64,000 nucleotides of DNA from Promethearchaeota archaeon. GTDB lineage: Archaea; Asgardarchaeota; Heimdallarchaeia; Hodarchaeales; Hodarchaeaceae. The position numbers and the translations under genes are program-made. The stretch lies in assembly GCA_048938105.1 (NCBI GenBank), contig JBHLMN010000008.1, positions 174,138 to 238,137 on the forward strand. Reading direction: 5' to 3'. Below the pieces are notes generated by a model, which was given only the letters and a program-made list of their open reading frames with translations, did no database searches and was not told where the DNA came from. Below, piece after piece: positions 1 through 18,463 of this stretch (the first letter of the stretch is position 1; the number at the start of each line of letters is the position of its first letter).

Positions 1-2661
1 CAAATTCAACAATGATTTATCTTGTGAGTTTCCTTCCACAAATTGCTGCCAAGAGTAACGTGGTTCATTAATTGTCACCATAGGATAATTGAATGATGTT
101 GTTATCGCATCAATGTACTGAATCATCCGTCTACAGAATTGCCAGTCGTCACCAATTTGCTGATCAGATCCTAACCACCAGAAAGCATCACTCCCTTCAG
201 CAATTGTAATATATCGCCATAATGTTTCGTTCTCAGTATCCGTTAATTCTTCCTGATGATTAACTAGGAAGTCTCGTCCTTCCATTATATAATTCCAAAG
301 TAGATTTTCGTCTGGTTCACCGTACCAAGTTGAAGTAGTCCCATCGACCCAAGATCCACCACCATAGGGAGGTGGATAATTTTTTGTATAGCTAAGCTCA
401 GATGAAGTTAGTATTTTTGTTGGAGGAATACTTTGTATAGCTTCCTCTAATGTCGCAGTTTGTATCCACCCGAGTATTTGTGATTCCTCTAAAGCAGTAT
501 ATACATATTCCAATAAATATCGTGCTGATGGGGCTCCCCAGATCATCCAATTTTCGCCATCAGCAGCTATTGTTAATACTCTATCTGAATCGCTTTCTAC
601 AACTTGTTCTTTATAGATTGAGATGAATTGTCCCATTAAATCTCGAGCAGCATCTTCTGCTGATGGATAATTATTATAAGTAAAACCTATATAATTAGAA
701 ATAGTTGTATGTCGGAAAAAAACAACCATTTTCTCCCCTGTGATAGAATCAACAACCCAATAAGGTTCATAAGGTCGATTCCCACCACCTAGGTTCACAT
801 CTGACCAGATAGTGTGGTTTATTCCATTTTTAATCCAATATGGAATGATTGGAGTATTGAAACTCATTTCTGGTTGCCATGCTCCGTGTGGATTATAATC
901 AAAAAGATTTGAAGTTACATCTTTCCCGAGAGACATTTGACGATTAATATCATCCCACCATCCCCAGTTGGCTAGAAGTGCAAAAATTGGATGATTATAA
1001 CCAGAAGTCAGTATTTCTAGTTTTCCATTTCTGCTTTGATTATGCAGAATGTCGTAATGGAGCTCAATTGTTTTATTAATGTTTTCGACCCAATCATATG
1101 TCCAGGTTCCACTATTATTCCATCCGTTTCTGGAAGCTAACCACTGTACTAGGAGGGAGGGTTGTAAATTGATGGTCACTGAAATATTGGGATGACGATA
1201 GAGATCTTCCACATGCCATAAGTAAGGTCCTTCTGTGTGGGCTTGAGCCCATGGCGCAAGAAAGTTGGGGGGATCTGTAAATGGTTCTGTATAGAATGGT
1301 TGATGTTGGTGCCAGACAAAAGATACGTACAATTTCTTCGTTGTCAAAGTTGTATCAACAATATTGAGGTTAATTGTTTTCTCAAAAACGATATTACTTC
1401 CCTCTAACACCTCTACATCTAAATTATATGAACCCATGTCCTTACTATGATTGAATATATGAACCAACGTTAAATTGCTACTGCCTGGGAATGGAAGATT
1501 CGTCCATTGGTAAATAAGTATCCTATCCAGATGTAGGTTCACTGTTACTTCTTTTTGATTCTTAGCTACATTCTCAAGAAAAATAGTTGCATTTATGTCC
1601 TGATCAGTGGTGTAAACAAACCTATCCAGACTTAGAGAACCAATAATTCCAAGCTTTTCTAAGAAGCCAGTGATCCCTGCTTCCTCCATCTCTGAAGTTA
1701 AAGGCCCTCCATATAGACTTAAACTATAAGTCACTGATTCCCCTGGAGAAAGAATCTTTTCAGAATAACACACTCGTGTTTCAATCCCCCATGAAGATGA
1801 CTCCAGTCGAAAATATTTTGTTGTATTGTGATATATCATTCCACCAAATGCTCCTTCCGACAGATCATAAATCCCTGACCATTCCAAGTCGTTCCATTGA
1901 AAGAAATTCCATGAAAGAGTCTGACCAATAGTTGATTGTCCTCCATGACTATAAGCTTGGTAGTCACTACTGTGGTCTGGCCCAATTTTACTGCCCCATC
2001 CTAAGGTATAACCCATTGGATTTCCCGTATCTTGGCCCTCTAAACCAATTGAGGATGCTGTTGGATTAGTAAAGTTGATAGTTAAATTACCCCAATGTTT
2101 ATTTTCAGCTATCTGGAATGTTATGGTAACATTAAGGCCAGCTAAATCCGAAGCAGTTCCCTCATATGTACTATTAAAAACATAGAATCCCTGAATTGTT
2201 GCTATCCCCCCCACTTCCTGTGTCACCAGATCAAATGGTGCGTCCCATAATTCTCCTGTCCAAGGTTGGTTTGTAACCCAACTCCATAATGGATACCGAT
2301 TTGTGATTAAATCTCCACCTGCACTTGACACTCCAGAGTTTGCTGCTAGTTCCGTATTCGAGGTATTATCATACCATTTTACTAACCGAAACCCATAACG
2401 AGTTATCCCAATTGTGACTACTCCAGTATTAATGATATATTCATTCCCTGGAATGTCAGGATTCAGGTCAATTTCTCTTATCATACTTTGTTGTATCTTT
2501 TTATTAAATCCAGAATTAACCTCTTTTTCCGAAAAAGAATGAAAAAGCTTTGTAGAAGACGTAATTTCATTAGAAGACGACATAAACGTCATTTCTATTA
2601 CAATCATGGGAGTTATTAATATTAAAACAACCAATATTCTGCTAAAGTCATTCTTTTTCAT
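1..2661 (-). CDS. Secreted GH57 glycoside hydrolase (amylopullulanase/alpha-amylase-like), 3' end runs off the window; paralog of 2831..6979
   Basis: Absent from the ORF track. I hand-translated several segments of the minus strand in one frame from ATG at 2661: MKKNDFSRILVVLILITPMIV (signal-like), RYPLWSWVTNQPWTGELWDAPF (shared with the paralog), GH57 motifs VWHQHQPFY, GAWQPEMSF (nucleophile Glu), AADGENWMI (acid/base Asp), AEGSDAFWW. The frame is still open at base 1; I did not check every codon in between. Confidence 0.9.
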   Translation of the reverse strand, partial: MKKNDFSRILVVLILITPMIVIEMTFMSSSNEITSSTKLFHSFSEKEVNSGFNKKIQQSMIREIDLNPDIPGNEYIINTGVVTIGITRYGFRLVKWYDNTSNTELAANSGVSSAGGDLITNRYPLWSWVTNQPWTGELWDAPFDLVTQEVGGIATIQGFYVFNSTYEGTASDLAGLNVTITFQIAENKHWGNLTINFTNPTASSIGLEGQDTGNPMGYTLGWGSKIGPDHSSDYQAYSHGGQSTIGQTLSWNFFQWNDLEWSGIYDLSEGAFGGMIYHNTTKYFRLESSSWGIETRVCYSEKILSPGESVTYSLSLYGGPLTSEMEEAGITGFLEKLGIIGSLSLDRFVYTTDQDINATIFLENVAKNQKEVTVNLHLDRILIYQWTNLPFPGSSNLTLVHIFNHSKDMGSYNLDVEVLEGSNIVFEKTINLNIVDTTLTTKKLYVSFVWHQHQPFYTEPFTDPPNFLAPWAQAHTEGPYLWHVEDLYRHPNISVTINLQPSLLVQWLASRNGWNNSGTWTYDWVENINKTIELHYDILHNQSRNGKLEILTSGYNHPIFALLANWGWWDDINRQMSLGKDVTSNLFDYNPHGAWQPEMSFNTPIIPYWIKNGINHTIWSDVNLGGGNRPYEPYWVVDSITGEKMVVFFRHTTISNYIGFTYNNYPSAEDAARDLMGQFISIYKEQVVESDSDRVLTIAADGENWMIWGAPSARYLLEYVYTALEESQILGWIQTATLEEAIQSIPPTKILTSSELSYTKNYPPPYGGGSWVDGTTSTWYGEPDENLLWNYIMEGRDFLVNHQEELTDTENETLWRYITIAEGSDAFWWLGSDQQIGDDWQFCRRMIQYIDAITTSFNYPMVTINEPRYSWQQFVEGNSQDKSLLNL

Positions 2662-2830
2662 ATTTATCCCTAAAGTCCTTTATTCTTGTTATTACGATTT
2701 TTAAAGGCTAGTGTTAAGCTTATGAATAAAAAAACAATGTTCAAAAATAGAAAACCTAGAGCTTCACTTATCGACGACTTTGAAGTTGAAAGAAAGGTGA
2801 CCATCTACCAATATTGTCCTACTCTTGGAT

Positions 2831-5800
2831 TCATATAAACTTAGAGCGTTTACGGATGATTTTAACTAGAAGTAACAATAGAAATAATGATAATGTCACT
2901 TCGAGAGCTAGAAAACCTGGAGCCCTACCTTCTGATGATGTAGTGGTCATACTAGAGGTAGTAGTTGTTGATGTTTCTATTTCAATCTTAAATTCAATCT
3001 GTAATTCCTTTGTTTGGACATTCCCAAGTGAATCTGTGGCTTCAATTTTAAGGTAAAGTGTTTCAGCATCTTGAAATGGCCCTATAATAGCTGACCAGTC
3101 ATTCTCTCCTGTTTTTATCATACTTTTACTTGTCCAATCCTTAGTAAGATCAGTCTTATATTTTAACACAACAATTTGGATTCCTGATGGATCAATCACA
3201 GTTACTGTGAATGTTATCCGATCAGTTGCTTCTGGTTCTTCTGGTGACCATCGTGCATCTTTAATACTAGGGGGAACTTCATCATTAATGAAAATATCAC
3301 TCGTGAATTCCTTTATAACGCTATCATGGAAATAACAGATGATTTTAACAATTTTTTCTCCTCCAATCAATCCTTGAACCTCAAAGTTTATAGTTGATGT
3401 CTCTAAGGCTTGAAATTGAACAGTTTTGTTAACTGGTACAATTGCTGAACCGTTAATTAATATAAGAATGGTTACAGGATAAGAAAGTGTATTTGAAAGG
3501 TTAATTCGGATAATTTTTGGTTCAGTGATATCTAAAGTTCCAACTAATTTGTTGAAAATCAAGATATCTGAACTTGGTATGGCTGTTCTAATTTGGTGAA
3601 TACTGATTACTACATCTTCTGCATTTTCAATTTCTATTGTGACCTTAAGTTCTCCAAACGTGTAAGCATTTACTTCAATAACCCATTCAAATGTAGTCAA
3701 TTGACCAATATCTATTTCATTAATTGTTTTATTATTATCTCCTTGCAACCCTTGTGGCAAATCTAAAAAGACAGTAACGTTAACCGCTTTAACAATTCCT
3801 ATATTTTTCACATTTATACCTAAGATTCCGCTTTTTCCTGGGGAAGCATTTTTAATTCCTAGATCATTGATAGATATTACACTTAATTCTGGTTCAGCTG
3901 CGTGGATAGTGAATGTATGAACTACATCATCTATGTTATCTGCAGAGATTGTTACTGTAAACTGATAAGAACCAACATCAGAGCTCACATCAAAGATCCA
4001 GTTCGCAATGTACATGTCAATAATTCCATATGCCAAGTCTTCTTGGAAAGTTATTTTATCTAAAGTTCCAATGTTGATCGTTGAAGAGTTCAACAAAGTT
4101 AATCCTGGATCTGTACTTATTACTACTCTCACATTCTGAACTGCTTCTCCTCCTCTACTTTGGATAGCGAGAGGAATGGCGAGAGATGACCCTGCTTCGA
4201 TACCATATTCTCTTGGGAGTTCTAAAGTAGCTGCATAGCCAGGATAAACAGTATCCATTGTTTGAAAATTAAAAACAGGTTTTTTAAGCCCACTTTCTGT
4301 TGTATAATACAGTTGAGGGAGTTTTTCAAATCCAAAGACAGGATCAGATAGGAAAGGCCAGAGTAAAGTCCAATCTAGTGATACGAAAGCCTTCTCAAAA
4401 TAACCAGTGATATGATCCGCCCAGTGACGAACTTTAATGAATTGACCTAAATCAGCACCAAACCCTCCAGCCCATGTTGCTTCTTCATCACGACCAGCGT
4501 AAAAAGCCCAATCAGAACTTTCAGCGTTCATAAGCCACCTCCATAGTTTTAATTCTTCTTCAACACTCAAAGATTCTCGCTCTTTATAGAAGAAATCTCT
4601 TGCTTCACTCATGTATTTCCACATATCGTTCTCAACGATTTCCCCCCGCCAATTACTGAAGGAAAATCCTTCCTTATCAGCCCAGGAACCTGATGGAACA
4701 TTTGAAAGGATTGGTGCTTCAATAGTACCATTTTTGATAAACTTCTCTAATTCTGATAATTTTAGCGATTTAATCCATCCTCGTGGTTGTTGTTCTTCCA
4801 AAGCAGAGTAGAAATTGAATAAAAGCTCATGCGCGTTTGGAGAACCCCCCATAATCATCCAATTTTCACCATCTAACGCAATAGGTAAAATTTTATTTTC
4901 TTTACCAAAATCTAACCGCTTACCTAAATAGATATCGATCATATCTCCTAATAGTCTCCTAGCATTCTCTTTCATGTCTCCCTTATTATATCCGAATGCT
5001 ATACGATCTCCAATTGGATCTTCTGCCAGTAAAATGATTTCTTTTCCGGTTTCATGTCTAACTCTATATGGAAGGAGGGGATCATTCATCCCCGAGGCTC
5101 TCAGCATAATTTCTTTATTAACAACTGTGTAAGCTATCCCTGTATCATTCAAAATTGGAATACAGTCCATAGAAAATGACATTTCAGGAAGCCAAGTACC
5201 TCTGACTGTTGTACTTAAGATACTTTCTGTAAAATTCTTCCCCATTTCCATTTGACGGTAAGCATCTTCACTAAAACCAGCTTCTATCAATAGTGGCAAA
5301 ATTGGGTGGGAATAAGGAGTTGTTGTCACTTCTAGCGGGCCATCAGGCTGGGAAAGCTCACTATATTTCTGAATAGCAAGTTTTAAATCATCTGTCGCAC
5401 GATCAGTCCAAGTTCCTGAATCGTTCCATCCATTTTGGGCTATGTACCATTGGTAGAGTAAAATTGGTACAATGTTAATAGATACATGTGCTCCTGGATG
5501 AGCTTCTAGAGCCTCCCAATGTCTTCTATACGCTCCTTGAGTGTGCAAAAGAGGCCACGGGGATGTAAATGTACCACGCCAGTCATAGTTTGCAGGATTG
5601 TGTAAATGCCATAAAAATACTGGATATAGTGTTCCTCCCTTGAAATCAACAATATTTAAGGTAACACTCCTAGGGATTTCTGCAATTCCCATTGTAGCCT
5701 TTAGTTTAAGTTCAGATCTGCCTTCAACCTTCAATACAGAAGAACTAAAAGTGTGCCACTCATTATAAGTTTCTCCTGGATTAATAGTTATATCTTGTTT

Positions 5801-6979
5801 AGTATAGATAACACCATCAGACTCGTTAAGTAATTCAATCTTATCTACCGTTGTGGCTATTGTAGCAAAATTCGTGATAGTATAGCTCGCATTTATTGGA
5901 TCATTAGAACCATAAGCAAATTTATCAATATCTAAAGTGACCCCTACTCCAACACTATCCATAAAATCATTAAAACCCGCATTTTCAATGAGAGTATTAT
6001 TCATTTTTCCTGCATAGAATGTTAATGGATAAGAAATAGATCCATTTGAGGGGATATTTTCTATTTGGAATTCCATTCGGAGCTCATTGCCAAAATCTTC
6101 TGGCCATTCGTCCCAAGATACTGTACTGTTGTGATTTTTAAATCCAGAAGCCAAACCAACTACAGGGTCATAAGTCAATAACCATTCTACATCACCAAAA
6201 TGACGATTATCTTGGTACAAGAGTGTATACCAGGCAAAAGGATCATTACCTCTTTTTTTGTAAGCATAAAAGTCATCATTCGAATCTGGTCCAATCCACC
6301 CACACCAATTAGTTGTAAATCCTATTGTGTTACCTCCGGCATCATATCCATCAAGGTTGATTGAATGGTTTGTTGGATTGATAATAAGGATTTTAACATC
6401 AAAATAAGCCTCATCAGCATAAAAAGTATAGATTTGGGTAATATTTAATCCTTCATAATAGTAATCAGGGATCCCACTCGCTGGATCATAATTTATTCCT
6501 TCCATAATATAGCTATAAGCGAATTCAACGTTTCCTGTATAAGTACCTATTGGATGAGTTCCAAGAATGGGTATAAAAGGCGCCTTAGCTAGCTCACCTG
6601 GCCAGGGTTGTTTCGTCAACCAGTTCCAAAGAGGATACCGATAGTAATTCAATGAGAATCCTGCATCAAAAACACTATGTCCATCTGCAGTAATTGCGTT
6701 AACAACACGGAGACCCTCAGTTGTTAAAGCAAAGGTCACTTCCCCTGTATCAATGACCAATTCATCTCCAGCGACCTTGTCGACTACATTCGACATAGTA
6801 ATGTTAATTGTATTTGTCTGAGAGATAGATGTAATTTTCTGTGTCCCGTCTAGTTTAATAGCTGATTGAGTTTCATTTGTTTCTTCTATAGTATTGTTCA
6901 ATGTAAAATGTGATAAATTGAATAAGATTAAGATTAATAAAACAAATCCGGTAGATCTAATACATTTCATAATAATCAC
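2831..6979 (-). CDS. Surface-anchored GH57 glycoside hydrolase with N-terminal beta-rich domain, C-terminal Ig/CARDB-like domains and PGF-type membrane anchor
   Basis: Signal peptide; WHLHNP, PYSHPILPLL, WLPEM, LDGENW, AESSDW GH57 regions; Thr/Ser linker + APGF + TM + RKRSK tail. Likely start is ATG at 6970. Confidence 0.9.
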   Translation of the reverse strand: MIIMKCIRSTGFVLLILILFNLSHFTLNNTIEETNETQSAIKLDGTQKITSISQTNTINITMSNVVDKVAGDELVIDTGEVTFALTTEGLRVVNAITADGHSVFDAGFSLNYYRYPLWNWLTKQPWPGELAKAPFIPILGTHPIGTYTGNVEFAYSYIMEGINYDPASGIPDYYYEGLNITQIYTFYADEAYFDVKILIINPTNHSINLDGYDAGGNTIGFTTNWCGWIGPDSNDDFYAYKKRGNDPFAWYTLLYQDNRHFGDVEWLLTYDPVVGLASGFKNHNSTVSWDEWPEDFGNELRMEFQIENIPSNGSISYPLTFYAGKMNNTLIENAGFNDFMDSVGVGVTLDIDKFAYGSNDPINASYTITNFATIATTVDKIELLNESDGVIYTKQDITINPGETYNEWHTFSSSVLKVEGRSELKLKATMGIAEIPRSVTLNIVDFKGGTLYPVFLWHLHNPANYDWRGTFTSPWPLLHTQGAYRRHWEALEAHPGAHVSINIVPILLYQWYIAQNGWNDSGTWTDRATDDLKLAIQKYSELSQPDGPLEVTTTPYSHPILPLLIEAGFSEDAYRQMEMGKNFTESILSTTVRGTWLPEMSFSMDCIPILNDTGIAYTVVNKEIMLRASGMNDPLLPYRVRHETGKEIILLAEDPIGDRIAFGYNKGDMKENARRLLGDMIDIYLGKRLDFGKENKILPIALDGENWMIMGGSPNAHELLFNFYSALEEQQPRGWIKSLKLSELEKFIKNGTIEAPILSNVPSGSWADKEGFSFSNWRGEIVENDMWKYMSEARDFFYKERESLSVEEELKLWRWLMNAESSDWAFYAGRDEEATWAGGFGADLGQFIKVRHWADHITGYFEKAFVSLDWTLLWPFLSDPVFGFEKLPQLYYTTESGLKKPVFNFQTMDTVYPGYAATLELPREYGIEAGSSLAIPLAIQSRGGEAVQNVRVVISTDPGLTLLNSSTINIGTLDKITFQEDLAYGIIDMYIANWIFDVSSDVGSYQFTVTISADNIDDVVHTFTIHAAEPELSVISINDLGIKNASPGKSGILGINVKNIGIVKAVNVTVFLDLPQGLQGDNNKTINEIDIGQLTTFEWVIEVNAYTFGELKVTIEIENAEDVVISIHQIRTAIPSSDILIFNKLVGTLDITEPKIIRINLSNTLSYPVTILILINGSAIVPVNKTVQFQALETSTINFEVQGLIGGEKIVKIICYFHDSVIKEFTSDIFINDEVPPSIKDARWSPEEPEATDRITFTVTVIDPSGIQIVVLKYKTDLTKDWTSKSMIKTGENDWSAIIGPFQDAETLYLKIEATDSLGNVQTKELQIEFKIEIETSTTTTSSMTTTSSEGRAPGFLALEVTLSLFLLLLLVKIIRKRSKFI

Positions 6980-10038: not shown

Positions 10039-12087
10039 TTAAGGTGGTAATTTTAACATGTTTGGCAACATTTCTAACCACCATTGAAAATATATTCTTA
10101 ATAATTCTGCAAGACTCCATGCTTGACTTATGGTTCCTCTCGAATGGCCTAATGAATCGTTATCTGACCCGTCTAAAATCTCACCAAGAGTTCCCAATGC
10201 GCCCCGCGTTAAGACTCTTTTAATAAGAACTTCTGTTAAACTTCGTGCTTCCTCAAGTTTCCCAAAACGGATAGCAGCTTCAATAACTGGTCCTGATAAC
10301 CATAACCATACATCACCATTGTGATAACTGAAATCATGGTGTTCTTCTCCTTTTCTCGAACCATAGTCGTGAAGTGGATGATAATTTGGATCATCTTTGG
10401 ATAAAGATCTTATCCCATGATCTGCTAAACAATTGGTAAGCACATCTTCAATAACGCACTCAGCTTGATGTGTAGTGATAAGAGGATTATCTAGTAACGG
10501 AACAGTTATAGCAAAAATAATATTAGGACGTTTTTGAAGATTTGGTATGCCATCTTTATCCAAGTGATCATACAGGGTCTTATTTGAAGAATCCCAGAAT
10601 TTATCATTGAATACTTTTTTCAACTTGTCCATTATTTTCTTCAATTCTTTAGCAAGAGCAATTTCCCCCATAAATCTAGCGATTCTTTGTGCAATATCCA
10701 ATTCAGTAAAAAATAGAGCTTGAATTTCTACAGCACGATTACCCCTGGGAGTAGCAATAACTCCATTCGTTTGGGCATCCATCCATGTTTCACGATCTCC
10801 ATGTGTGAGAAATCCTAATTCGTCTGTTCTGGACAGTTCTCCCTTTATAGCAATTTTTATAGCAGGCCAAATTTCAGATAAAAATTTCTTTTCAAGACTT
10901 GTATATTCAAATAAATCCCAGATCGAGCGAATGAACCATCCTGTTGCATCTGCTGTTTCATAATTTGGATTCGGAACATTAACTTGTAGGATATTTGGAA
11001 CTCTCCCATAGGTTGGACTACTTGAATCTGTATCTTGACTATTAATCATTGTACGAATCCATTCTTCTGCCATCTTGAATTGTCCTGTAACAAGTAACGC
11101 CCCTCGAAAGGAAATGAAACTATCCCGACCCCAATATTCAGGAAACCAGTGTAATCCAGCATAAATTCCTTTCCCCCTTATATTCATTGTAAGGCTATCT
11201 AAGCTTAACACTACCCAATTAAGAGCCTGATCCCAATCATTGTTATCAGATGCAATATATGTATTATTCAATATGTCAATAAGTGGATCAGATGTCTTCT
11301 GCCAAAAATTCTGATAGTTATTCATCCCTTCAACTAAAAGCTTTGTAACCTCATCTATAGTGTTCTCTATCACAATTATAATAAAGACTGGTTCGTTAGG
11401 ATCAATTTCAAAGACTAAGTTTCCAGGTTCATAAACTCCTCTTTCCGGGCTGTCGTCTCCTCTAAACTTATCTTTTCGATATATTCTTTTAATTATTTTC
11501 TCACGTTCAATGAATTTTACTAATTTTGAAACTTTTATTCCAATGAATTTTGGTCCAGAGTAATCTGTGCTTGATGTGGAAATTAGAAGAAGATTAGTAG
11601 ATGGATCGAATTTTAAGCTATAATTGCTTCCAATAGCAGCCCAATCATGCCTCATACCAAATTGAGGCCTAAACCCAACTTCACCAGTGAATTTTGATTG
11701 ATATTGAATGATCAAAATATTCTCATTTCGGACAAGAAAGAATAGTTCAGTAAAATCACCAATTTTTGTCGAGTGTTCGATTTTCACACAATGGGGGTAT
11801 ACTGTTGTAGAAATTACATGTTTAGGATTAGTCTTTTCAAAATACGTATCTAACCAGAAGTTTGTGAGTGTTGTCCATCGGTCTTTAACTAATCCCTGCC
11901 ACTTCCTAGTTTCTTCTTTATTCGTTTCACCAGACCAATGACATCGTTGTCTGTTTGTCATCACATACTCATATTGCTTGGGAGAAGAAACAGTCAATCC
12001 TAGCTTTTTTAGTTGAGGAATTACTTTTAATGGACTCATTGATCCGTTGTGAATATTTCCTAGATGTGAATCCTTTTTGTTTGTCAT
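10039..12087 (-). CDS. Amylo-alpha-1,6-glucosidase (GH133, glycogen-debranching family)
   Basis: YAGLHWFPEYWGRDSFIS, ETWMDA, TPRGNRAVEIQAL, YHNGDVWLWL, SQAWS. Confidence 0.88.
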   Translation of the reverse strand: MTNKKDSHLGNIHNGSMSPLKVIPQLKKLGLTVSSPKQYEYVMTNRQRCHWSGETNKEETRKWQGLVKDRWTTLTNFWLDTYFEKTNPKHVISTTVYPHCVKIEHSTKIGDFTELFFLVRNENILIIQYQSKFTGEVGFRPQFGMRHDWAAIGSNYSLKFDPSTNLLLISTSSTDYSGPKFIGIKVSKLVKFIEREKIIKRIYRKDKFRGDDSPERGVYEPGNLVFEIDPNEPVFIIIVIENTIDEVTKLLVEGMNNYQNFWQKTSDPLIDILNNTYIASDNNDWDQALNWVVLSLDSLTMNIRGKGIYAGLHWFPEYWGRDSFISFRGALLVTGQFKMAEEWIRTMINSQDTDSSSPTYGRVPNILQVNVPNPNYETADATGWFIRSIWDLFEYTSLEKKFLSEIWPAIKIAIKGELSRTDELGFLTHGDRETWMDAQTNGVIATPRGNRAVEIQALFFTELDIAQRIARFMGEIALAKELKKIMDKLKKVFNDKFWDSSNKTLYDHLDKDGIPNLQKRPNIIFAITVPLLDNPLITTHQAECVIEDVLTNCLADHGIRSLSKDDPNYHPLHDYGSRKGEEHHDFSYHNGDVWLWLSGPVIEAAIRFGKLEEARSLTEVLIKRVLTRGALGTLGEILDGSDNDSLGHSRGTISQAWSLAELLRIYFQWWLEMLPNMLKLPP

Positions 12088-12214: not shown

Positions 12215-13351
12215 ATGAACAGTATTAATCCTAAAGCAGGAAAAAAAGTACATTCTTTTCAAAATTTTCTCTCACAGCTAAACAGAATTGATGATACGGA
12301 AAAAGAAGGATACATTCAAGCTTATTTGAAGGATCAACTCCTCCAAGATAACATTCCTATCATTGATGAGAGAAGTTGTACATTCATCTATTATGGTTCC
12401 AATAATAAGGTAGCAATAGAAGGAGACTTTACAGGTTGGGACTCAGAAGAAATGACTAAGGTACAAAACACAGACCTGTGGTTTTTTACGAAAACTTTTC
12501 CAAATGATGCGAGACTTGATTATCTCATTACTATTGATGGGATTTCAACACTTGATTTTGGGAATAGACGTTTAGTTCCAAGCGGTTTTGGTTATAGAAG
12601 TTATATTGAAATGCCACAATATAAACCTAGTAAATCAATTGAATTTAATGACCATATTCCTCATGGAACTGTTGAAACAATTGAAAATTTTAGTAGCGCT
12701 ATTTTTAATAATACAAGAGAAATCAAGATTTATCTTCCTCCAAATTACAATCCGTCTATAGCTTATCCTTGCCTTTTTATCACAGATGGATTAGAATATC
12801 TCCAATTTGCACAGTTTAATAATGTGTTAGATAACCTTCTTTATAACAAAAAAATACGAGAACTACTTGCAATTTTCATTCCTCCTATTAATCGTAATAT
12901 GGAATATTTCATTGAGAAAGAAAAATTCTGTAATTTTTTATTAAAGGAGGTAAAACCGTTTATTGATAAGAAATATGCAATAATAAACAATCCTTCGGAA
13001 TGTGGCTTAATGGGAGCTTCACTTGGAGGTTTAATTTCTGTTTTCACTAGTATAAATAACGAAGATACTCTAGGGTTAATTGCTTCGCAATCTGGTTATT
13101 TTCCAGAAGATTTTATGGGAATTTTCAGTAAAAAAGTTCCTAATGTAAAATTTTACTTTGATGTGGGTGTTTTTGAAACCTCTATTGGCTCCAATTCTAA
13201 TTTTTTACAAATGAATCGTGAAATGAAAAAAATAGTTGATGCAAAAGGATTTAATTATTACTATCAGGAAGTGAATGAAGGACATTCTTGGGGGAGTTGG
13301 CGAGCCCGATTAAAGGATATATTAATGTACCTCTTTCCAATGGAAGAATAA
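12215..13351 (+). CDS. CBM48/E-set + alpha/beta-hydrolase esterase (Fes/CE1-like), cytoplasmic
   Basis: VAIEGDFTGW N-domain, IYLPPNY, GASLGG nucleophile elbow, EGHSWGSWR; no signal peptide. Confidence 0.85.
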   Translation: MNSINPKAGKKVHSFQNFLSQLNRIDDTEKEGYIQAYLKDQLLQDNIPIIDERSCTFIYYGSNNKVAIEGDFTGWDSEEMTKVQNTDLWFFTKTFPNDARLDYLITIDGISTLDFGNRRLVPSGFGYRSYIEMPQYKPSKSIEFNDHIPHGTVETIENFSSAIFNNTREIKIYLPPNYNPSIAYPCLFITDGLEYLQFAQFNNVLDNLLYNKKIRELLAIFIPPINRNMEYFIEKEKFCNFLLKEVKPFIDKKYAIINNPSECGLMGASLGGLISVFTSINNEDTLGLIASQSGYFPEDFMGIFSKKVPNVKFYFDVGVFETSIGSNSNFLQMNREMKKIVDAKGFNYYYQEVNEGHSWGSWRARLKDILMYLFPMEE

Positions 13352-13508
13352 AATTAATATAGTATTATTTATTGGTTAACATCTCCAAAATAGATGGAAA
13401 TTTTCAATAATGTACTAGTTTTTATGCTAGAAATAACGCTATCTTCAATTCCAGAATTTAAATTTGAATATACTTCACTGCAATAAAATAAAACATAATT
13501 TCTAAGAA

Positions 13509-14999
13509 ATGGTCGTGATTAATATTAGGATAGTGACAGGAAAAACGATTATACTGGTTTTATTATGCACTATAATTTCTTTTTCCAATTTTGTCAATGT
13601 TTCTTTAGAAGAACAATTCACATCTTTTCAAGATTTTTTATTACAGGTCAATTTGGCAAATAAAACGGAGAAAATTCAATTAATTCAATCCTACCTAAAT
13701 GATCAGCGTTCAAAAAACAATATCCCTGTGATTGAGGAACGAAATTGCACTTTCCTATTTATCGGGAACCACACTACCGTTTTAGTTGCAGGAGATTTCA
13801 ATGGATGGACTGGTGAACCTTTGTTAAGAATCAATGATACAGAATTATGGTACTTAACAAAGTCTTTTCCTCTTGATGCTAGATTAGATTACAAGTTTGT
13901 GATTGATGGAACATGGACATTAGATCCAGAGAATGACCAATTAATAATGGGTGGTTATGGTAATAATAATGAAATCGTAATGCCAAATTACCACCCTGAT
14001 CCTGCAATAAACCATTATGATAATATCACACACGGGACAATTAAACTAATTAGAAACTTCTATAGTTCAGCTTTTGAGAATTATAGAAACATTCAGGTTT
14101 ATTTACCACCAAATTATAATCCAAACAGTTCTAAAACATATCCTTCTTTATATGTTACAGATGGTTTTGAATACGTTGATCTAGCTAAATTTGCTAATGT
14201 GTTTGATTATCTACTCTTTCATGATTTAGTACGGGAAGCAATAATCATTTTCATTCCCCCTTATCCAGGTGAAAGAAATAATGAGTATTTTTATGATAAA
14301 AATACCTTCCTAGATTTTTTGACTCTTGAAGTTTTACCATATATCGATAAAAACTATCGTACTAGCCAAAATCGTTCTGAAAGAGGAATGATGGGAGCAT
14401 CTTTGGGTGGTTACATATCTTTTTTCGTTGGTTTTAATCGAGAGAATCTGTTTGGATTAATTGCCTCTCAATCTGGTTATTTTCCGTATGATCTAATATT
14501 TACGTTAGGGAGCCGAGTTCCTGATACAAAATTCTATTTTGATATCGGTACGTTTGAAAAATCAATTGCTGGAGGAACGGATCTTTATACTCTCAATAAA
14601 GAAATGAATAAAACGATGACAGAAAAAAAATATTCTTTTCTCTATCAAGAAATCAATGAGGGCCACTCTTGGGGCAACTGGCGAGCGCACTTAGATGATA
14701 TTCTAATATATCTTTTACCCCATGTAGACACTCCTCAAAATACATCCTTGTCATCAAATACCAATGATTTAACCTCAGTTACCAGTAGTATCATCTCAAC
14801 TCCTTCATCTGGAAGTACTGAGAACAATATAACTTCTCATGAAACATCTAGGATAACTTCTTATGACACTTTTAATAAAAAAACTAATACTGTTTCCTCT
14901 ACTCAACCGACAAACCAATCAACAGTATTTCCATTTTTCCTTGGAATTTTAGCAATCTTCGTCTTCTATTTATTTAGAAGAAAGAGATTTAATATTTGA
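13509..14999 (+). CDS. CBM48/E-set + alpha/beta-hydrolase esterase (Fes/CE1-like), secreted and membrane-anchored paralog
   Basis: Signal peptide, VAGDFNGW...YKFVIDGTWTLDPEN, GASLGG, EGHSWGNWR, long Ser/Thr linker, TM + RRKR tail. Confidence 0.85.
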   Translation: MVVINIRIVTGKTIILVLLCTIISFSNFVNVSLEEQFTSFQDFLLQVNLANKTEKIQLIQSYLNDQRSKNNIPVIEERNCTFLFIGNHTTVLVAGDFNGWTGEPLLRINDTELWYLTKSFPLDARLDYKFVIDGTWTLDPENDQLIMGGYGNNNEIVMPNYHPDPAINHYDNITHGTIKLIRNFYSSAFENYRNIQVYLPPNYNPNSSKTYPSLYVTDGFEYVDLAKFANVFDYLLFHDLVREAIIIFIPPYPGERNNEYFYDKNTFLDFLTLEVLPYIDKNYRTSQNRSERGMMGASLGGYISFFVGFNRENLFGLIASQSGYFPYDLIFTLGSRVPDTKFYFDIGTFEKSIAGGTDLYTLNKEMNKTMTEKKYSFLYQEINEGHSWGNWRAHLDDILIYLLPHVDTPQNTSLSSNTNDLTSVTSSIISTPSSGSTENNITSHETSRITSYDTFNKKTNTVSSTQPTNQSTVFPFFLGILAIFVFYLFRRKRFNI

Positions 15000-16934
15000 A
15001 AAGAGGGTTGAACCATATGGTTTTATTTCAAAAATCAACGCTCCATTCTCAACGATAAATTCATTGTCAGTTATCAAGTCATATACTAAACCATTAACAA
15101 GACCAATTTTCCATACTGGAATTTTAACCTCTTTAGCTCTATTGGAGTTATTAAATACTGCAATAATAATTTCATCTTCAATAAATCTAGAATAACAGTA
15201 TATCTTCTGATCACAATAAAGAGTTTTGATGGATCCTTCTTGTAAAGCTTTTGAGTTTCTCCTGATCTTAATAAGGCGTTTATAATTCACCAAGATATCT
15301 TTATTCCACTTATCATTATCCCAAATCATACATCTTCTGCAATCAGGATCTTGTTCTCCCTCTAGTCCTACTTCATCTCCATAATATATCGATGGGACAC
15401 CAATATAAGAAAATAGGAAAGTTATTCCTAATTTAACCTTATTTATATTCATATCTACTAGTGTAATAAATCTTGGTAAATCATGACAGTTTAATAAGTT
15501 ATAGTTAAGCAGTTGAATTTGAAACGGTAGAAGTGAACGGAAATCTGCCATTTGTTGATCCATATCAATGGTGGAATAATTGAATTGGATAGATTTTCGA
15601 TAGTATCTAGGGGGATCATAAATACTAACAATATCCTTCTTTAGAATCCATTTAAGGAATGGTTGGTAAAAACCACGGTAATTCATAACACCATCTAATC
15701 TCGTTCCATTTAACAGGTCAGTTGGATCAAAGAAATGCTCCCCCATGAGATAGCAATCTTTTTTAACATTTTTTACGTTATATCGAAACTCCTCCCAAAT
15801 CTTCTTATACTCTTGGAAATCCTGTTGCCTTCCAAGCATGTTTGCTACATCAATTCTCCAGCCATCAATGTTAAAAGGTTCACTAAGCCAGTATTGAGCA
15901 ATAGAATCTTTTTCACGAAAAATATCATCTCTTACTTTTTTTGATTTATAGTTAAGTTTTGGTAAGGATTTATGGCCTAACCAGCATAAATAATCATCAG
16001 GATGGGTATGAAAAATAAAATATTCATAATATGGACTATTTTTATCGCTCTGTGCACTTTTGAACCATGGATGATTAACCCCAGTATGATTAAAAACGCC
16101 ATCAAGGATTATTTTAATACCATTTTGGTGTAATTCATTAACAAGATTAACAAACTCTATATTAGTGCCTAAATGCTCATCTACATTTTTATAATCGATT
16201 GTATCATATTTGTGGTTTGACAAAGACTTGAAAATTGGATTTAAGTAAAGAGCATTAATACCAATCATTTTAAAATAAGGTATTTTTTTTCTTATCCCTT
16301 CAAGGTCACCCCCATAAAAATCGATGTGAAAACTTCCTGTTTTATAAGACTCAGGCGGTTCCCCCCACTTCTTTAATATAGGTGATCTTCCTCGATACAT
16401 ATACTCATTATTTTTCACGTTCCTTTTTGGATTTCCATCAAAAAATCTATCTGGGAAAATCTGATAAAATATTGATCGTTTAATCCAACTAGGATCTTCA
16501 AAATCAGAAATTATTTTGAAGTCTCTTATATCAGATGGCATATGAGAGGTTAAACCATGTGCATTGAACCAATATTGGTCTTTTTCTGAAATAAGCATGA
16601 ATCTATAATTGAAGGATTTTGTAATTATTTTTGTTTCTGCTTCATAATAAGAAAAAAATTCTTCTTCACTTGACTTTTTCATAAGAATATTGAATTCTTC
16701 GCCTTCTGGTGCACAGCAAATAAAAATCTCTTTGATAGGATTCTTTCTATATAACCTGATCTTAATTTTGATTTTGTCCCCTAAGTCTGGATTGGATGGA
16801 GTTAGGAAATCTTTTGATCCATCAGAGTGAATTGTTTCTTTCCATTTAATATGACTCATTGATAATTCTCTCTTCAAAAAAATAATGGGGGGAGAATTTA
16901 GCTTATTGGGAATATTTAGATTCCTGATAGGCAA
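14970..16934 (-). CDS. malZ: GH13 maltodextrin glucosidase / neopullulanase-type enzyme
   Basis: FYQIFPDRF, GGDLEG, NHKYDT, DGVFNHTG, DGWRIDVA (Asp), MGEHF (Glu), NCHDLPR (Asp), DPDCRR. Likely start is ATG at 16859 (MSHIKW). Confidence 0.85.
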   Translation of the reverse strand: MPIRNLNIPNKLNSPPIIFLKRELSMSHIKWKETIHSDGSKDFLTPSNPDLGDKIKIKIRLYRKNPIKEIFICCAPEGEEFNILMKKSSEEEFFSYYEAETKIITKSFNYRFMLISEKDQYWFNAHGLTSHMPSDIRDFKIISDFEDPSWIKRSIFYQIFPDRFFDGNPKRNVKNNEYMYRGRSPILKKWGEPPESYKTGSFHIDFYGGDLEGIRKKIPYFKMIGINALYLNPIFKSLSNHKYDTIDYKNVDEHLGTNIEFVNLVNELHQNGIKIILDGVFNHTGVNHPWFKSAQSDKNSPYYEYFIFHTHPDDYLCWLGHKSLPKLNYKSKKVRDDIFREKDSIAQYWLSEPFNIDGWRIDVANMLGRQQDFQEYKKIWEEFRYNVKNVKKDCYLMGEHFFDPTDLLNGTRLDGVMNYRGFYQPFLKWILKKDIVSIYDPPRYYRKSIQFNYSTIDMDQQMADFRSLLPFQIQLLNYNLLNCHDLPRFITLVDMNINKVKLGITFLFSYIGVPSIYYGDEVGLEGEQDPDCRRCMIWDNDKWNKDILVNYKRLIKIRRNSKALQEGSIKTLYCDQKIYCYSRFIEDEIIIAVFNNSNRAKEVKIPVWKIGLVNGLVYDLITDNEFIVENGALIFEIKPYGSTLFSNIKSLSSK

Positions 16935-16975
16935 TTATTTGATCTTTTTGACTTGCGGATTCGATTAAGATCACT

Positions 16976-18463
16976 CTAAGCTTCCTCTATAATCAATTTA
17001 TCTGGGAATCTTGTGAAGATTAACAGTGCTATTAACATGGGGATGAACGCAAAAACACCCATTAATAAGATTGGACCTAATGGGTCATAAATATAATAGT
17101 AAATTCCTAATTCTTCAGGATAATCAGGATGGAGGATTTTTTCGCTTACAAATGCTCCCAAAATAACACCTTCAAGAAAAACAGCAACAGCAATAGCCAA
17201 CTTTTCAGTGAATTCTTGGAAAGCATAGTACATCGACTCTCTTCGTAATCCCAATCGTCGTTCTTCATCATCAACTATATCACCAACAATAGTAGGAGGA
17301 AAAATCCATAAACCACCCATTCCAAAACCAATAAGGCAAATCATTAGGAATGCTATGAATAAGTTTCCTGGTGATATAAGAAATAGGAAATTTAGAAGGA
17401 GAGGGAATGTAAATATTACCATCGATAAAATGAATGCCCTTTTCTTTCCAAGAAACCGTGGTTGTGCTAATACTCCCCAAATTGGAAAGCTGATAATGGC
17501 AACTATGATCCAAGGCGCTGTTACGATCATTAGCTCATCGAGTTCAAGAAAAAGTACACTGACTGCAAAGAAGGGCATTACTGCATTTAATATTCGGAAT
17601 GAAAATTGCATTCCAATCTGATTTACTAGATAAATCTGATAAGAATCGTTTTGTAGGCTAATGCGTAATGATTCCATGAGTGGCACTCGTGGTTGTTTCT
17701 GGATGTCATCAGTAGGCATTTCCTCGATTGGTAGAACAGCAACTATAGTTACGAGGACAATGACTCCTAATACGATACTTGTCATTGAGAATCCAATGCG
17801 GTCATATAGAATAGGTGCAATCACTACACCGACAATATTCGCGAGAATAGCAAATATGTTTCCCCATACTGCCAATGTTATGCGTTCTTTCGATGTTGGG
17901 GCAATTTCAGGTAAAAGAGCATAAATTGGTACAAAAACAAAAGTGAATAATGCATCAAAAATGGATATAATAACAAAGAGAAAACCAATAAGTAGGATTT
18001 CTCCCAATCCATTAGGAAAGAGAGTTAACACGAAAAGTGGAGGATTAAACAAAAGAATGAAACTAATAGTCATTGGAACGATTCCAACCAGTACGAATGG
18101 TCGGCGCCGTCCCCATTTTTTCCACCTTGTGTTATCAGACAACCAACCAACTATTGGATTTACAAATGCATCTACTACTCTCCCAACCATTAATGCTGTT
18201 CCTACTAATGCTCCTATGACTAAAGGTTCGAGACTAACACCTGTCATTCCCTCTGTCAGGTAGAAGTATAATACAAATCCCAAAATAGATGCATTGATAA
18301 TCGATATACCGAAATTTCCAGTGGAGTAGAGAAAGATCTCCTTACGTGAGAGTTTTCGTTGTTGAATTATGTTCATCATTAAATCATCTTCGTGAAATAA
18401 GCAATGAAAGTATTTCAACTGGAAGAAATAAGGATACGCTTGTTTAGTCTCTACTTCCACCAA
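16976..18463 (-). CDS. MFS glycoside-pentoside-hexuronide (GPH) sugar:cation symporter
   Basis: About 12 TM segments; DAFVNPIVGWLSD, WGRRRPF, DIVDDEE...RRE. Likely start is ATG at 18379. Confidence 0.88.
   Translation of the reverse strand: MVEVETKQAYPYFFQLKYFHCLFHEDDLMMNIIQQRKLSRKEIFLYSTGNFGISIINASILGFVLYFYLTEGMTGVSLEPLVIGALVGTALMVGRVVDAFVNPIVGWLSDNTRWKKWGRRRPFVLVGIVPMTISFILLFNPPLFVLTLFPNGLGEILLIGFLFVIISIFDALFTFVFVPIYALLPEIAPTSKERITLAVWGNIFAILANIVGVVIAPILYDRIGFSMTSIVLGVIVLVTIVAVLPIEEMPTDDIQKQPRVPLMESLRISLQNDSYQIYLVNQIGMQFSFRILNAVMPFFAVSVLFLELDELMIVTAPWIIVAIISFPIWGVLAQPRFLGKKRAFILSMVIFTFPLLLNFLFLISPGNLFIAFLMICLIGFGMGGLWIFPPTIVGDIVDDEERRLGLRRESMYYAFQEFTEKLAIAVAVFLEGVILGAFVSEKILHPDYPEELGIYYYIYDPLGPILLMGVFAFIPMLIALLIFTRFPDKLIIEEA

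What the first reader, a model, noticed from the sequence alone, without database searches (positions are those of the whole stretch)
1..18463. Archaeal cell-surface alpha-glucan utilisation locus with phosphatase and esterases: candidate system for phosphorylated/acylated starch or glycogen
Seen: nine contiguous genes - two secreted GH57s, a surface EEP phosphatase, a P-loop protein, GH133, two CBM48-esterases, GH13 and a GPH symporter. Three carry a signal peptide plus a Ser/Thr linker-TM-basic anchor; the first GH57 has a leader but its C-terminus is outside the window. Established: GH57, GH13 and GH133 act on alpha-1,4/1,6-glucans; CBM48 binds glycogen/starch; starch and glycogen carry phosphate monoesters that impede hydrolases. 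Inference: a PUL-like two-compartment pathway. Outside, anchored enzymes depolymerise, dephosphorylate and de-esterify the glucan; the symporter imports oligomers; cytoplasmic esterase, debranching enzyme and MalZ finish the job. I know of no archaeal locus combining these accessory activities, and no maltodextrin ABC importer is visible in the window.
Basis: partly seen in the sequence, partly recalled or inferred. Interest (0 to 1): 0.82.

Follow-up and report, generated by a model that had tools for sequence, protein, structure and literature searches.

The report
Asgard surface starch-degrading locus with accessories
An uncultured Asgard (Hodarchaeota) archaeon carries a real gene cluster for digesting starch- or glycogen-like sugars at its cell surface, and the cluster includes a tethered sugar-phosphatase and glycogen-binding esterases whose link to such sugars recurs in bacteria but has never been tested.

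Summary
All nine ORFs exist with the stated domains. Four proteins (both GH57s, the EEP phosphatase and one esterase) have a leader, a Ser/Thr linker, a hydrophobic anchor and a basic tail, and carry 3-4 times more N-glycosylation sequons than the cytoplasmic ones.

The GH57s are amylopullulanase-like with an intact catalytic dyad. The EEP domain belongs to the MapP (maltose-6'-phosphate phosphatase) family. It nests among secreted Bacteroidota/Spirochaetota homologues, some of which sit directly upstream of secreted GH13 amylases. The secreted esterase's CBM48 keeps the glycogen-binding Trp/Lys/Trp triad of AMPK-beta; the cytoplasmic copy has lost two of the three. Homologous esterases are embedded in GH13/GH77 operons in seven Bacteroidota genomes.

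Among 60 Asgard relatives, EEP co-occurs only with the giant GH57s (2 genomes) and the orthologous esterase only with GH133 (3 genomes).

Corrections:
- The 'P-loop' gene is a passenger.
- The locus continues left of the window into a GT-C protein and an ABC/OPT machine.
- EEP and esterase are separable modules in bacteria.

Substrates (phospho- or acyl-glucan) remain inferred. Other notes of this scan had already flagged the MapP likeness and the esterase twins on this same DNA.

The parts
1..2661 (-). GH57a, N-terminal 887 aa of a 1342-aa surface-anchored amylopullulanase-like enzyme. Order of parts: leader, ~400-aa beta-supersandwich N-domain, GH57 catalytic domain; the Ig-like C-region, Thr linker and anchor lie left of the window.
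   Evidence: Pfam GH57 136.6 bits. Full ORF L176:271-4299:- with the C-terminal anchor. Best solved relatives are the amylopullulanases 7E1Y and AaApu (PMC12106739). Motifs HQHQP, WQPE, DGENW and AEGSD are present.
2831..6979 (-). GH57b, a 1382-aa paralogue with the same architecture. Its C-terminus reads Ser/Thr linker, PGF, hydrophobic segment, KIIRKRSKFI.
   Evidence: Pfam GH57 86.1 bits; WLPE and DGENW motifs; hydrophobic segments at 1-28 and 1352-1377. The N-domain model (pLDDT 87) has a galactose-mutarotase/YidC-P1-like fold.
7054..9201 (-). Surface-tethered MapP-family EEP phosphatase: leader, catalytic domain (~res 70-355), three ~101-aa Ig-like PNGG repeats, Ser/Thr linker and anchor. 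It is the first gene of the EEP-GH57b-GH57a same-strand run (gaps of 74 and 169 bp).
   Evidence: Pfam 55.6 bits. 32% identity, E 1e-29, to the Enterococcus EEP gene that follows the PTS IIBC gene. 3TEB is the only close solved relative. Canonical EEP catalytic positions are invariant. The tree places it among secreted bacterial homologues.
9310..9966 (+). 218-aa dTMP-kinase-like protein with a degenerate Walker A; probably a passenger and not part of the system.
   Evidence: Sub-threshold Pfam hit; no PDB match. Its orthologues in G004 and G017 lie on other contigs. The Atlas look-alikes are bacterial hypothetical or 'putative dTMP kinase' clusters.
10039..12087 (-). Cytoplasmic GH133 (amylo-alpha-1,6-glucosidase-type) debranching enzyme, divergent from the esterase pair across a 127-bp spacer.
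   Evidence: Pfam GDE_C 228.5 bits; no hydrophobic segments. Adjacency to the esterase is conserved in G004 and G015.
12215..13351 (+). Cytoplasmic CBM48-like plus CE1-type esterase. It is a derived duplicate without leader or anchor, and two of the three CBM binding residues are lost (L104, S111).
   Evidence: Pfam Esterase 93.3 bits. Closest solved structures are CBM48-CE1 feruloyl esterases. The GxSxG Ser269 and His357 are invariant in the family. It is 51% identical to its neighbour.
13509..14999 (+). Surface-anchored CBM48 plus CE1-type esterase: leader, CBM48 with the Trp/Lys/Trp triad, catalytic domain, ~80-aa Ser/Thr linker and anchor.
   Evidence: Pfam Esterase 88.6 bits and AMPK1_CBM 26.8 bits. 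The CBM's best PDB match is the AMPK-beta1 glycogen-binding module, with FNGW/YKF/DGTW aligned to FNNW/YKF/DGQW. The orthologues in G004 and G015 are of this secreted type.
14970..16934 (-). Cytoplasmic GH13 maltodextrin glucosidase (MalZ-like); the real start is probably the ATG 25 codons in (about 16859).
   Evidence: NF008051 586.4 bits against a cut-off of 568. Pfam Alpha-amylase 227 bits plus the N- and C-terminal domains.
16976..18463 (-). GPH/MFS_2 cation:sugar symporter, the candidate importer of oligosaccharides; the real start is probably at the MMNII methionines (about 18382).
   Evidence: Pfam MFS_2 191.9 bits. TIGR00792 gph 149.8 bits, below its cut-off. 74% identical orthologue next to the esterase in G015. 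MFS_2-type transporters also occur in the bacterial EEP/GH13 and esterase/GH13 clusters.

Best explanation
This is a cell-surface alpha-glucan (starch, glycogen or pullulan-like) utilisation locus of a Hodarchaeota archaeon.

Outside the cell, three kinds of membrane-anchored enzymes act:
- Two giant amylopullulanase-like GH57 enzymes cut alpha-1,4 and alpha-1,6 bonds.
- A MapP-family EEP phosphatase, held on a three-repeat stalk, removes phosphate monoesters (most likely at C6) from the glucan or its fragments.
- A CE1-type esterase is aimed at the glucan by a canonical glycogen-binding CBM48 and removes an ester-linked group of unknown nature.

Fragments are imported by the GPH symporter and perhaps by the conserved ABC/OPT machine upstream.

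Inside the cell, a duplicated esterase without a working CBM, a GH133 debranching enzyme and a MalZ-like GH13 complete the breakdown to glucose.

Shown: gene content, topology signals, family membership, catalytic residues and synteny. Inferred: the substrates of the phosphatase and the esterases, co-expression, and the import route.

The EEP gene, and probably the esterase, came from bacteria, where homologues are secreted.
For: Family membership and catalytic motifs: with the GH57 motifs read against PMC12106739.

Topology: leaders and anchors on four proteins, and 1.6-2.4 sequons per 100 aa against 0.4-0.7 in the cytoplasmic proteins.

EEP:
- 32% identity, E 1e-29, to the Enterococcus EEP gene in the PTS-IIBC/GH65/pgmB arrangement described for mapP (PMC3737437).
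- JGI names its ~50%-identical bacterial relatives maltose 6'-phosphate phosphatase.
- It sits inside a 95* clade of secreted Bacteroidota/Spirochaetota proteins.
- In Lentimicrobiaceae and Paludibacter the homologue directly precedes a T9SS CBM48-GH13, flanked by MFS and LacI genes.
- GH13 is the commonest enzyme family among the neighbours.

Esterase:
- Its CBM matches the AMPK-beta1 glycogen module best, with Trp/Lys/Trp kept.
- 7 of 79 bacterial loci embed a homologue among several GH13 genes. One operon reads MFS, GH77, GH13, MFS, esterase, GH13, GH13, GH13.

Phyletic pattern in 60 relatives: EEP with the giant GH57s in 2 of 2 genomes, the esterase orthologue with GH133 in 3 of 3, none elsewhere. 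Synteny in G004 and G015.

Precedent: the EEP-fold phosphatase BT3783 in a yeast-mannan PUL (PMC4978465; structural hit at rank 6).
Against: - No enzyme activity is known for this EEP clade or this esterase clade.
- Most bacterial homologues sit among unrelated or housekeeping genes.
- EEP was not found in five bacterial genomes whose esterase lies among GH13 genes.
- The three archaeal genomes are congeneric, so their synteny may count as a single event.
- MapP itself is cytoplasmic and acts on a PTS product, not on a polymer.
- The EEP protein carries no recognised starch-binding module.
- I know of no natural ester-decorated starch or glycogen.
- The closest solved esterases are xylan feruloyl esterases.
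- No shared promoter motif was seen, so co-regulation is untested.
Confidence: 0.55

Rival explanations
1. This is a plain starch/glycogen locus with passengers. The GH57s, GH133, GH13 and the symporter form an ordinary alpha-glucan catabolic set. The EEP serves general phosphate scavenging or acts as a nuclease or phospholipase. The esterases act on unrelated esters and merely happen to lie here.
For: - EEP is found in only 2 of 60 Asgard genomes.
- Bacterial homologues of both proteins mostly have unrelated neighbours.
- A clear passenger, the kinase-like gene, sits in the middle of the locus.
- After 3TEB, the next PDB relatives of the EEP profile are sphingomyelinases.
Against: - EEP is much closer to MapP (E 1e-29) than to sphingomyelinases (E 1e-8, partial) or nucleases (E about 1).
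- Both accessories sit next to alpha-glucan enzymes independently in bacteria.
- The esterase carries a glycogen-type CBM48.
- EEP heads a same-strand run with the two GH57 genes, and this run is conserved in G004.
Confidence: 0.25
2. This is a surface-glycan building or remodelling system rather than a feeding system. Together with the adjacent GT-C/Glucodextran_C glycosyltransferase and the membrane machine, the extracellular GH57s would act as transglycosylases that build or reshape an alpha-glucan layer of the cell's own. The EEP and the esterase would trim carrier-linked or decorated intermediates.
For: - The block of GT-C with a glucodextranase-type binding module, the OPT-like proteins and the FtsX/ABC proteins lies directly upstream and is syntenic in G004.
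- The GH57 N-domain is also found fused to GT-C membrane domains in other organisms.
- The GH57 family includes branching enzymes and glucanotransferases (PMC12106739).
Against: - The closest solved GH57s are hydrolytic amylopullulanases.
- The locus holds cytoplasmic catabolic enzymes (a MalZ equivalog over its cut-off, and GH133) and a sugar importer.
- The bacterial counterparts lie in catabolic GH13/GH77/LacI clusters.
Confidence: 0.1
3. This is a xylan or other decorated-glycan esterase pair recruited next to starch genes by chance. The esterases would be CE1 feruloyl or acetyl esterases acting on hemicellulose.
For: - The closest solved structures are CBM48-CE1 feruloyl esterases (6RZN, 8BBP, 6MOU, 7B5V).
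- CBM48-esterases also deacetylate capsular polysaccharide (PMC11556721).
Against: - No xylanase or arabinofuranosidase family appears among 104 immediate neighbours of homologues, nor in this locus.
- The CBM matches the AMPK glycogen module (E 1.3e-6) better than the feruloyl-esterase CBM48s (E 0.03).
- Adjacency to GH133 is conserved.
Confidence: 0.1

Closest known systems
MapP, maltose 6'-phosphate phosphatase of Enterococcus faecalis (EC 3.1.3.90; Mokhtari et al. 2013, as cited in PMC3737437)
   Same: Same EEP subfamily: 32% identity over the whole catalytic domain, with shared motifs TLNxH..EE, HIG..YEEG.A.LSK.P, GDFN.NP, RIDY and SDH.GV. Both are linked to alpha-glucoside catabolism.
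   Different: MapP is a ~270-aa cytoplasmic enzyme encoded after a PTS gene, and it acts on a disaccharide phosphate made by the PTS. The archaeal protein has a leader, a three-repeat stalk and a membrane anchor; there is no PTS context; the presumed substrate is external.
Uncharacterised secreted EEP(+PKD) lipoproteins of Bacteroidota and Spirochaetota (P0006-P0120; loci L019-L067)
   Same: 45-55% identity, the same clade (95* support) and an extracytoplasmic location. Some sit beside secreted GH13, MFS and LacI genes.
   Different: The bacterial proteins have a lipoprotein Cys and an N-terminal PKD domain. The archaeal one has a C-terminal Ig-like stalk and a TM anchor. No member of the clade has been characterised.
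BT3783, the mannosyl-6-phosphatase of the Bacteroides thetaiotaomicron yeast-mannan PUL (PDB 3MPR/4C1R; PMC4978465)
   Same: An EEP-fold phosphatase encoded in a polysaccharide utilisation locus that removes sugar-6-phosphate decoration so that glycosidases can proceed. It is a structural match at ranks 6 and 43.
   Different: Only ~14-15% identity, and it is not found by sequence search. The glycan is mannan and the organism is a bacterium.
Plant and animal glucan phosphatases SEX4, LSF2 and laforin
   Same: The proposed role is the same: removing starch or glycogen phosphate monoesters that block amylolysis (PMC13666283).
   Different: Those are dual-specificity (CX5R) phosphatases with CBM48 or CBM20 that act inside the cell. 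This protein has an EEP fold, no CBM and sits outside the cell. It is an analogue, not a homologue.
CBM48-CE1 feruloyl esterases of xylan PULs (wtsFae1A/B 6RZN/6RZO, DmCE1B 7B5V, Bacteroides intestinalis 6MOU)
   Same: The same two-domain architecture and catalytic Ser/His. They are the closest solved structures (E 6e-18 to 7e-11).
   Different: The context here, and in seven Bacteroidota loci, is alpha-glucan and not xylan. The CBM resembles the AMPK glycogen-binding module more closely.
GH57 amylopullulanases of Thermococcales, Staphylothermus (7E1Y) and Aquifex (AaApu)
   Same: The catalytic domain, the conserved regions and the Glu/Asp dyad. Large archaeal members with a Thr-rich C-terminal anchor are known (my recollection of Thermococcus hydrothermalis Apu, not checked here).
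   Different: A rare ~400-aa beta-supersandwich N-domain precedes the catalytic domain; it has only 36 representatives in 1.84 billion proteins. The host is a mesophilic Asgard archaeon.

Membership tests
GH57 (amylopullulanase type) | GH57 catalytic domain over the Pfam threshold | tested here: met
   PF03065 scores 136.6 and 86.1 bits against a cut-off of 21.2.
GH57 (amylopullulanase type) | Five conserved regions with the nucleophile Glu (WxPE) and the acid/base Asp (DGENxW) | tested here: met
   GH57a has HQHQP, GKLEI, WQPEMS, DGENWM and AEGSDAFWW. GH57b has HLHNP, GPLEV, WLPEMS, DGENWM and AESSDWAF. These were read against the AaApu motifs in PMC12106739. GH57b departs in region 1 (N for Q).
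GH57 (amylopullulanase type) | [quoted passage not shown] | not testable with these tools
   Needs an enzyme assay. The closest solved relatives are two amylopullulanases.
MapP (maltose 6'-phosphate phosphatase) | EEP fold with the catalytic Asn/Glu/Asp/His set | tested here: met
   PF03372 55.6 bits. N79, E111, D257, N259, D316, D345 and H346 are invariant in 27 homologues. The model has pLDDT 79.7 and its top hit is 3TEB with TM 0.85.
MapP (maltose 6'-phosphate phosphatase) | Specific sequence kinship to mapP genes | tested here: met
   32% identity, E 1e-29, to the EEP gene downstream of PTS IIBC and beside GH65-pgmB on Enterococcus plasmids. That this gene is mapP is inferred from its arrangement.
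MapP (maltose 6'-phosphate phosphatase) | Cytoplasmic enzyme coupled to a maltose PTS | tested here: not met
   The protein has a leader, a stalk and an anchor, and there is no PTS gene in the locus.
MapP (maltose 6'-phosphate phosphatase) | Activity on maltose-6'-phosphate | not testable with these tools
   Needs an assay.
Glucan phosphatases (SEX4/LSF2/laforin) | Dual-specificity phosphatase domain plus CBM48 or CBM20 | tested here: not met
   The EEP protein gives only EEP hits, with no DSP or CBM family. It can be a functional analogue only.
CE1-type esterase with CBM48 | PF00756 alpha/beta-hydrolase with a GxSxG Ser and a catalytic His | tested here: met
   93.3 and 88.6 bits. S269 and H357 are invariant in 31 sequences.
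CE1-type esterase with CBM48 | CBM48 with the Trp/Lys/Trp carbohydrate site | tested here: met
   Met for the secreted copy, by alignment to AMPK-beta1. Not met for the cytoplasmic copy, which has L104 and S111. Mapping of the residues to W100/K126/W133 rests on my knowledge of AMPK-beta1.
CE1-type esterase with CBM48 | Xylan context and feruloyl esterase activity | tested here: not met
   Context only was tested. No xylan-active family appears among the neighbours of 52 homologues or in this locus. The activity itself is not testable.
Bacteroidota-type PUL | SusC/SusD pair | tested here: not met
   No SusC or SusD family is found in the window ORFs or upstream. The system is 'PUL-like' by logic only.
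PGF-CTERM / archaeosortase sorting | PGF motif plus TM plus basic tail, and an archaeosortase in the genome | tested here: not met
   Only GH57b has a PGF motif. The best PF09721 hit in the genome scores 23.3 bits, under the 25.7 cut-off, and has an in-frame TGA.
MalZ maltodextrin glucosidase | NCBIfam equivalog score over its cut-off | tested here: met
   NF008051 scores 586.4 bits against 568.
GH133 debranching enzyme | GDE_C domain; archaeal gde equivalog | tested here: inconclusive
   PF06202 at 228.5 bits is met. TIGR01561 scores 169 bits, below its cut-off of 364.

The most novel reading that the evidence does not exclude
A surface-tethered EEP-family (MapP-like) enzyme is an extracellular alpha-glucan or maltodextrin 6-phosphatase, and CBM48-targeted CE1-like esterases strip an as yet unknown ester decoration from alpha-glucans. 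Together they would define two unrecognised accessory activities of microbial starch and glycogen breakdown. These activities would be shared by Asgard archaea and Bacteroidota and acquired by the archaeon from bacteria.
Probability: 0.3. Interest if true: 0.75.

Novelty: new variant of a known kind. Interest (0 to 1): 0.6.

Why it matters
Microbial starch and glycogen degradation is usually described with glycoside hydrolases, binding proteins and transporters only. Phosphate removal is known only from intracellular dual-specificity phosphatases of plants, algae and animals, and a 2026 review notes that laforin is lacking in prokaryotes (PMC13666283).

If this reading is right, a secreted MapP-like clade that is widespread in Bacteroidota and Spirochaetota, and a glycogen-binding esterase clade, would be new accessory enzymes for decorated alpha-glucans. 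That would bear on carbon turnover in sediments and on processing phosphate-rich starches.

It would also show that a member of the archaeal group closest to eukaryotes assembled a surface-anchored, PUL-like digestive system partly from bacterial genes.

Tried and rejected
The contexts of database homologues (for example the Hodarchaeales esterase P0124 and the JGI esterase P0123) therefore could not be read; I used the search for related loci instead.
- The primary MapP paper (PMC3633101) is not held. MapP facts are cited second-hand from PMC3737437.
- Archaeosortase search: nothing over the cut-off, so I dropped the PGF-CTERM idea for the anchors.
- Shared promoter or operator motif: the intergenic regions were inspected by eye and nothing convincing was found.
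- P-loop gene as a 'glucan kinase': rejected. It has a degenerate Walker A, no PDB relative, and lies at other loci in G004 and G017.
- Obligate coupling of EEP and esterase: rejected. EEP was not found in five bacterial genomes with GH13-embedded esterases, although two MAGs carry both (record titles) and one Zixibacteria contig has them adjacent.
- Consistent starch context for all bacterial homologues: rejected.
- The EEP fold search does not discriminate substrate. Nocturnin, Tdp2, sphingomyelinase and BT3783 all score alike behind 3TEB.
- No statistical enrichment test was made for GH13 adjacency, because whole-genome GH13 baselines for these MAGs were not computed.

Full report
**Where it lies.** The window is G000:C49:174138-238137 of a 5.85-Mb assembly. 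The syntenic contig of a congeneric genome is titled 'Candidatus Hodarchaeota archaeon isolate YT2_004', so this is an Asgard archaeon. GC content is even (0.30-0.40) across the region.

**Observation.**
- There are two GH57 genes, an EEP gene, a GH133 gene, two PF00756 esterases, a GH13 gene that passes NCBI's maltodextrin-glucosidase equivalog cut-off (586 against 568 bits), and a GPH/MFS_2 symporter.
- The 218-aa 'P-loop' gene has only a sub-threshold thymidylate-kinase hit and a degenerate Walker A.
- To the right follow a Bax1-I-type membrane protein, acetyl-CoA synthetase and the methylcitrate genes. These are unrelated to the locus.
- To the left, outside the window, GH57a continues to 1342 aa and ends in a Thr-rich linker, a hydrophobic segment and a basic tail.
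- Further left come a GT-C protein with a glucodextranase-type C-terminal module, two OPT-like proteins and a MacB/FtsX ABC system.

**Topology.** GH57a, GH57b, EEP and the second esterase each have an N-terminal hydrophobic leader and the linker-anchor-basic tail. They carry 1.6-2.4 N-X-S/T sequons per 100 residues, against 0.4-0.7 in GH133, GH13, the first esterase, the kinase-like protein and the symporter. No archaeosortase was found over the cut-off, so I read the anchors as plain C-terminal membrane anchors.

**GH57 enzymes.**
- Their best solved relatives are 7E1Y and the 477-aa Aquifex enzyme. PMC12106739 identifies these as the Staphylothermus and Aquifex amylopullulanases.
- That paper's conserved regions (HMHQP, WPPEAS with the nucleophile Glu, DGENCW with the acid/base Asp, AEGSDW) are matched in both proteins.
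- The ~400-aa region in front of the catalytic domain is rare, with 36 representatives among 1.84 billion proteins.
- It almost always precedes GH57, and in two cases follows a GT-C membrane domain.
- It folds with pLDDT 87 into a galactose-mutarotase/YidC-P1-like beta-supersandwich plus an Ig domain. This is a common accessory fold of glycosidases.

**EEP phosphatase.**
- The only close solved relative is 3TEB, a structural-genomics entry of unassigned function. Sphingomyelinases follow far behind (E 1e-8, partial), and nucleases do not match.
- The catalytic domain is 32% identical (E 1e-29) to a 274-aa EEP gene on Enterococcus plasmids. That gene follows a PTS IIBC gene and lies beside GH65, pgmB and an epimerase. 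This is the malT-mapP arrangement described for MapP (PMC3737437).
- The canonical EEP catalytic positions are invariant.
- The closest relatives (45-55% identity) are hundreds of ~410-aa bacterial proteins with a lipoprotein Cys and a PKD domain. JGI names many of them maltose 6'-phosphate phosphatase.
- On a tree rooted on the Enterococcus genes, the two Hodarchaeota sequences sit inside a 95*-supported clade that is otherwise Bacteroidota and Spirochaetota. Only 2 of 60 Asgard genomes have the gene, so a bacterial origin is the simplest reading.
- The neighbours of the bacterial genes are heterogeneous, but GH13 is the commonest enzyme family among them (5 of 125 neighbours; further GH13 within 10 kb).
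- In Lentimicrobiaceae and Paludibacter the gene directly precedes a T9SS-tailed CBM48-GH13, with MFS and LacI genes alongside.
- Bacteroidota lack a need for PTS-product dephosphorylation in the periplasm (my knowledge), so this secreted clade must see external phosphosugars.
- A precedent for an EEP-fold phosphatase that clears sugar-6-phosphate decoration in a PUL is BT3783 (PMC4978465). It is also a structural match.

**Esterases.**
- Both keep the GxSxG Ser and the catalytic His, which are invariant in 31 homologues.
- The closest solved structures are CBM48-CE1 feruloyl esterases.
- However, the CBM of the secreted copy matches the AMPK-beta1 glycogen-binding module best (E 1.3e-6, against 0.03 for the feruloyl-esterase CBMs). 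FNGW/YKF/DGTW align to FNNW/YKF/DGQW. These are the W100/K126/W133 positions as I know them from AMPK-beta1.
- The Lys and the second Trp are at least 90% conserved in the family. The cytoplasmic copy has Leu104 and Ser111 instead.
- The single orthologues in G004 and G015 are of the secreted, anchored type and keep the triad. The cytoplasmic gene is therefore a derived duplicate that lost its leader, its anchor and its polymer-binding residues. This fits an enzyme that meets imported oligomers.
- Outside Hodarchaeales the nearest relatives (35-39% identity) are T9SS-secreted CBM48-esterases of Ignavibacteria and Bacteroidota.
- Their immediate neighbours are mostly housekeeping genes, and no xylan-active family appears.
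- In 7 of 79 bacterial loci the esterase lies among several GH13 genes. One tight operon reads MFS, S9-propeller-like, GH77, GH13, MFS, esterase, CBM48-GH13, GH13, GH127-like, GH13.
- A Heimdallarchaeota homologue follows a Glucodextran_C protein, and a Zixibacteria contig has a T9SS esterase directly followed by a T9SS EEP.

**Co-occurrence in relatives.** Four patterns hold among 60 Asgard genomes.
- The giant-GH57 N-domain is found only in G000 and G004.
- The EEP orthologue is found only in the same two genomes.
- GH133 is found only in G000, G004 and G015.
- The esterase orthologue (at least 47% identity) is found only in those three, always divergently adjacent to GH133.

The gene order in G004 is DUF6785, OPT, GT-C, GH57c, GH57a, GH57b, EEP, GH133, esterase. 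In G015 it is GH133, esterase, GPH, Bax1, ACS, PrpD. The kinase-like gene lies elsewhere in G004 and G017. These genomes are congeneric, so the pattern is not independent evidence.

**Limits.**
- EEP was not found in five bacterial genomes with GH13-embedded esterases, so the two accessories are separable modules.
- I found no paper describing a CBM48-esterase or an EEP phosphatase in an alpha-glucan locus. The library is partial.
- No natural ester-decorated starch or glycogen is known to me.
- Co-regulation is untested, and no shared motif was seen in the intergenic regions.

**Verdict.** The locus is real, and its core function (surface amylopullulanases plus cytoplasmic finishing enzymes) is well supported. 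The accessory phosphatase and esterases are genuinely tied to alpha-glucan genes in two domains of life. That makes 'decorated alpha-glucan utilisation' the best reading (about 0.55). The specific phospho-glucan and acyl-glucan chemistry remains unproven. I class it as a new variant of a known kind: a PUL-like system with accessory de-decorating enzymes.

Noticed in passing
L009 about 5930-9446 (G015:C1:155412-157439 and downstream): The GH133 orthologue of G015 lies in a 1171-aa open frame. Its 3' part hits the Glucodextran_C-like region of the neighbouring GT-C protein. This may be a fusion of GH133 with a binding module.
   Followed up: no
P0268, P0271 (residues ~410-643): The rare beta-supersandwich N-domain of the giant GH57s also occurs C-terminal to a PMT_2 (GT-C) membrane domain in other organisms. 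This parallels the GT-C plus Glucodextran_C gene just left of the window.
   Followed up: partly
L007:4898-7837:+ (G004): G004 has a third, shorter (979-aa) GH57 paralogue with the same N-domain. It lies on the opposite strand between the GT-C gene and GH57a, and it is absent from this window's genome.
   Followed up: partly
L147:138-3070 (Zixibacteria contig): A T9SS-tailed CBM48-esterase is directly followed by a T9SS-tailed EEP homologue (29% identity). This is the only bacterial case seen with both accessory genes adjacent.
   Followed up: partly
L168:1659-3257 and 12989-14965 (Bacteroidota): The GH13/GH77/esterase operon also holds a prolyl-oligopeptidase-N-propeller-like protein and a GH127-like protein. 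Their role in an alpha-glucan operon is unexplained.
   Followed up: no
window 9310-9966 (+): A 218-aa dTMP-kinase-like gene with the degenerate Walker A GTRLTQKT. Its look-alike clusters are bacterial. It is found in three congeneric genomes at different loci, which suggests a mobile passenger.
   Followed up: partly
G000:C39:7848-8051 (L177): The only exosortase/archaeosortase-like hit in the genome is below the cut-off (23.3 bits) and contains an in-frame TGA.
   Followed up: no
window 14970-14999 and 18444-18463: The apparent ORF overlaps (esterase/GH13 3' ends; GPH/Bax1) come from the longest-ORF calls. The TTG-started GH13 and GPH most likely begin at internal ATGs (about 16859 and about 18382).
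   Followed up: partly
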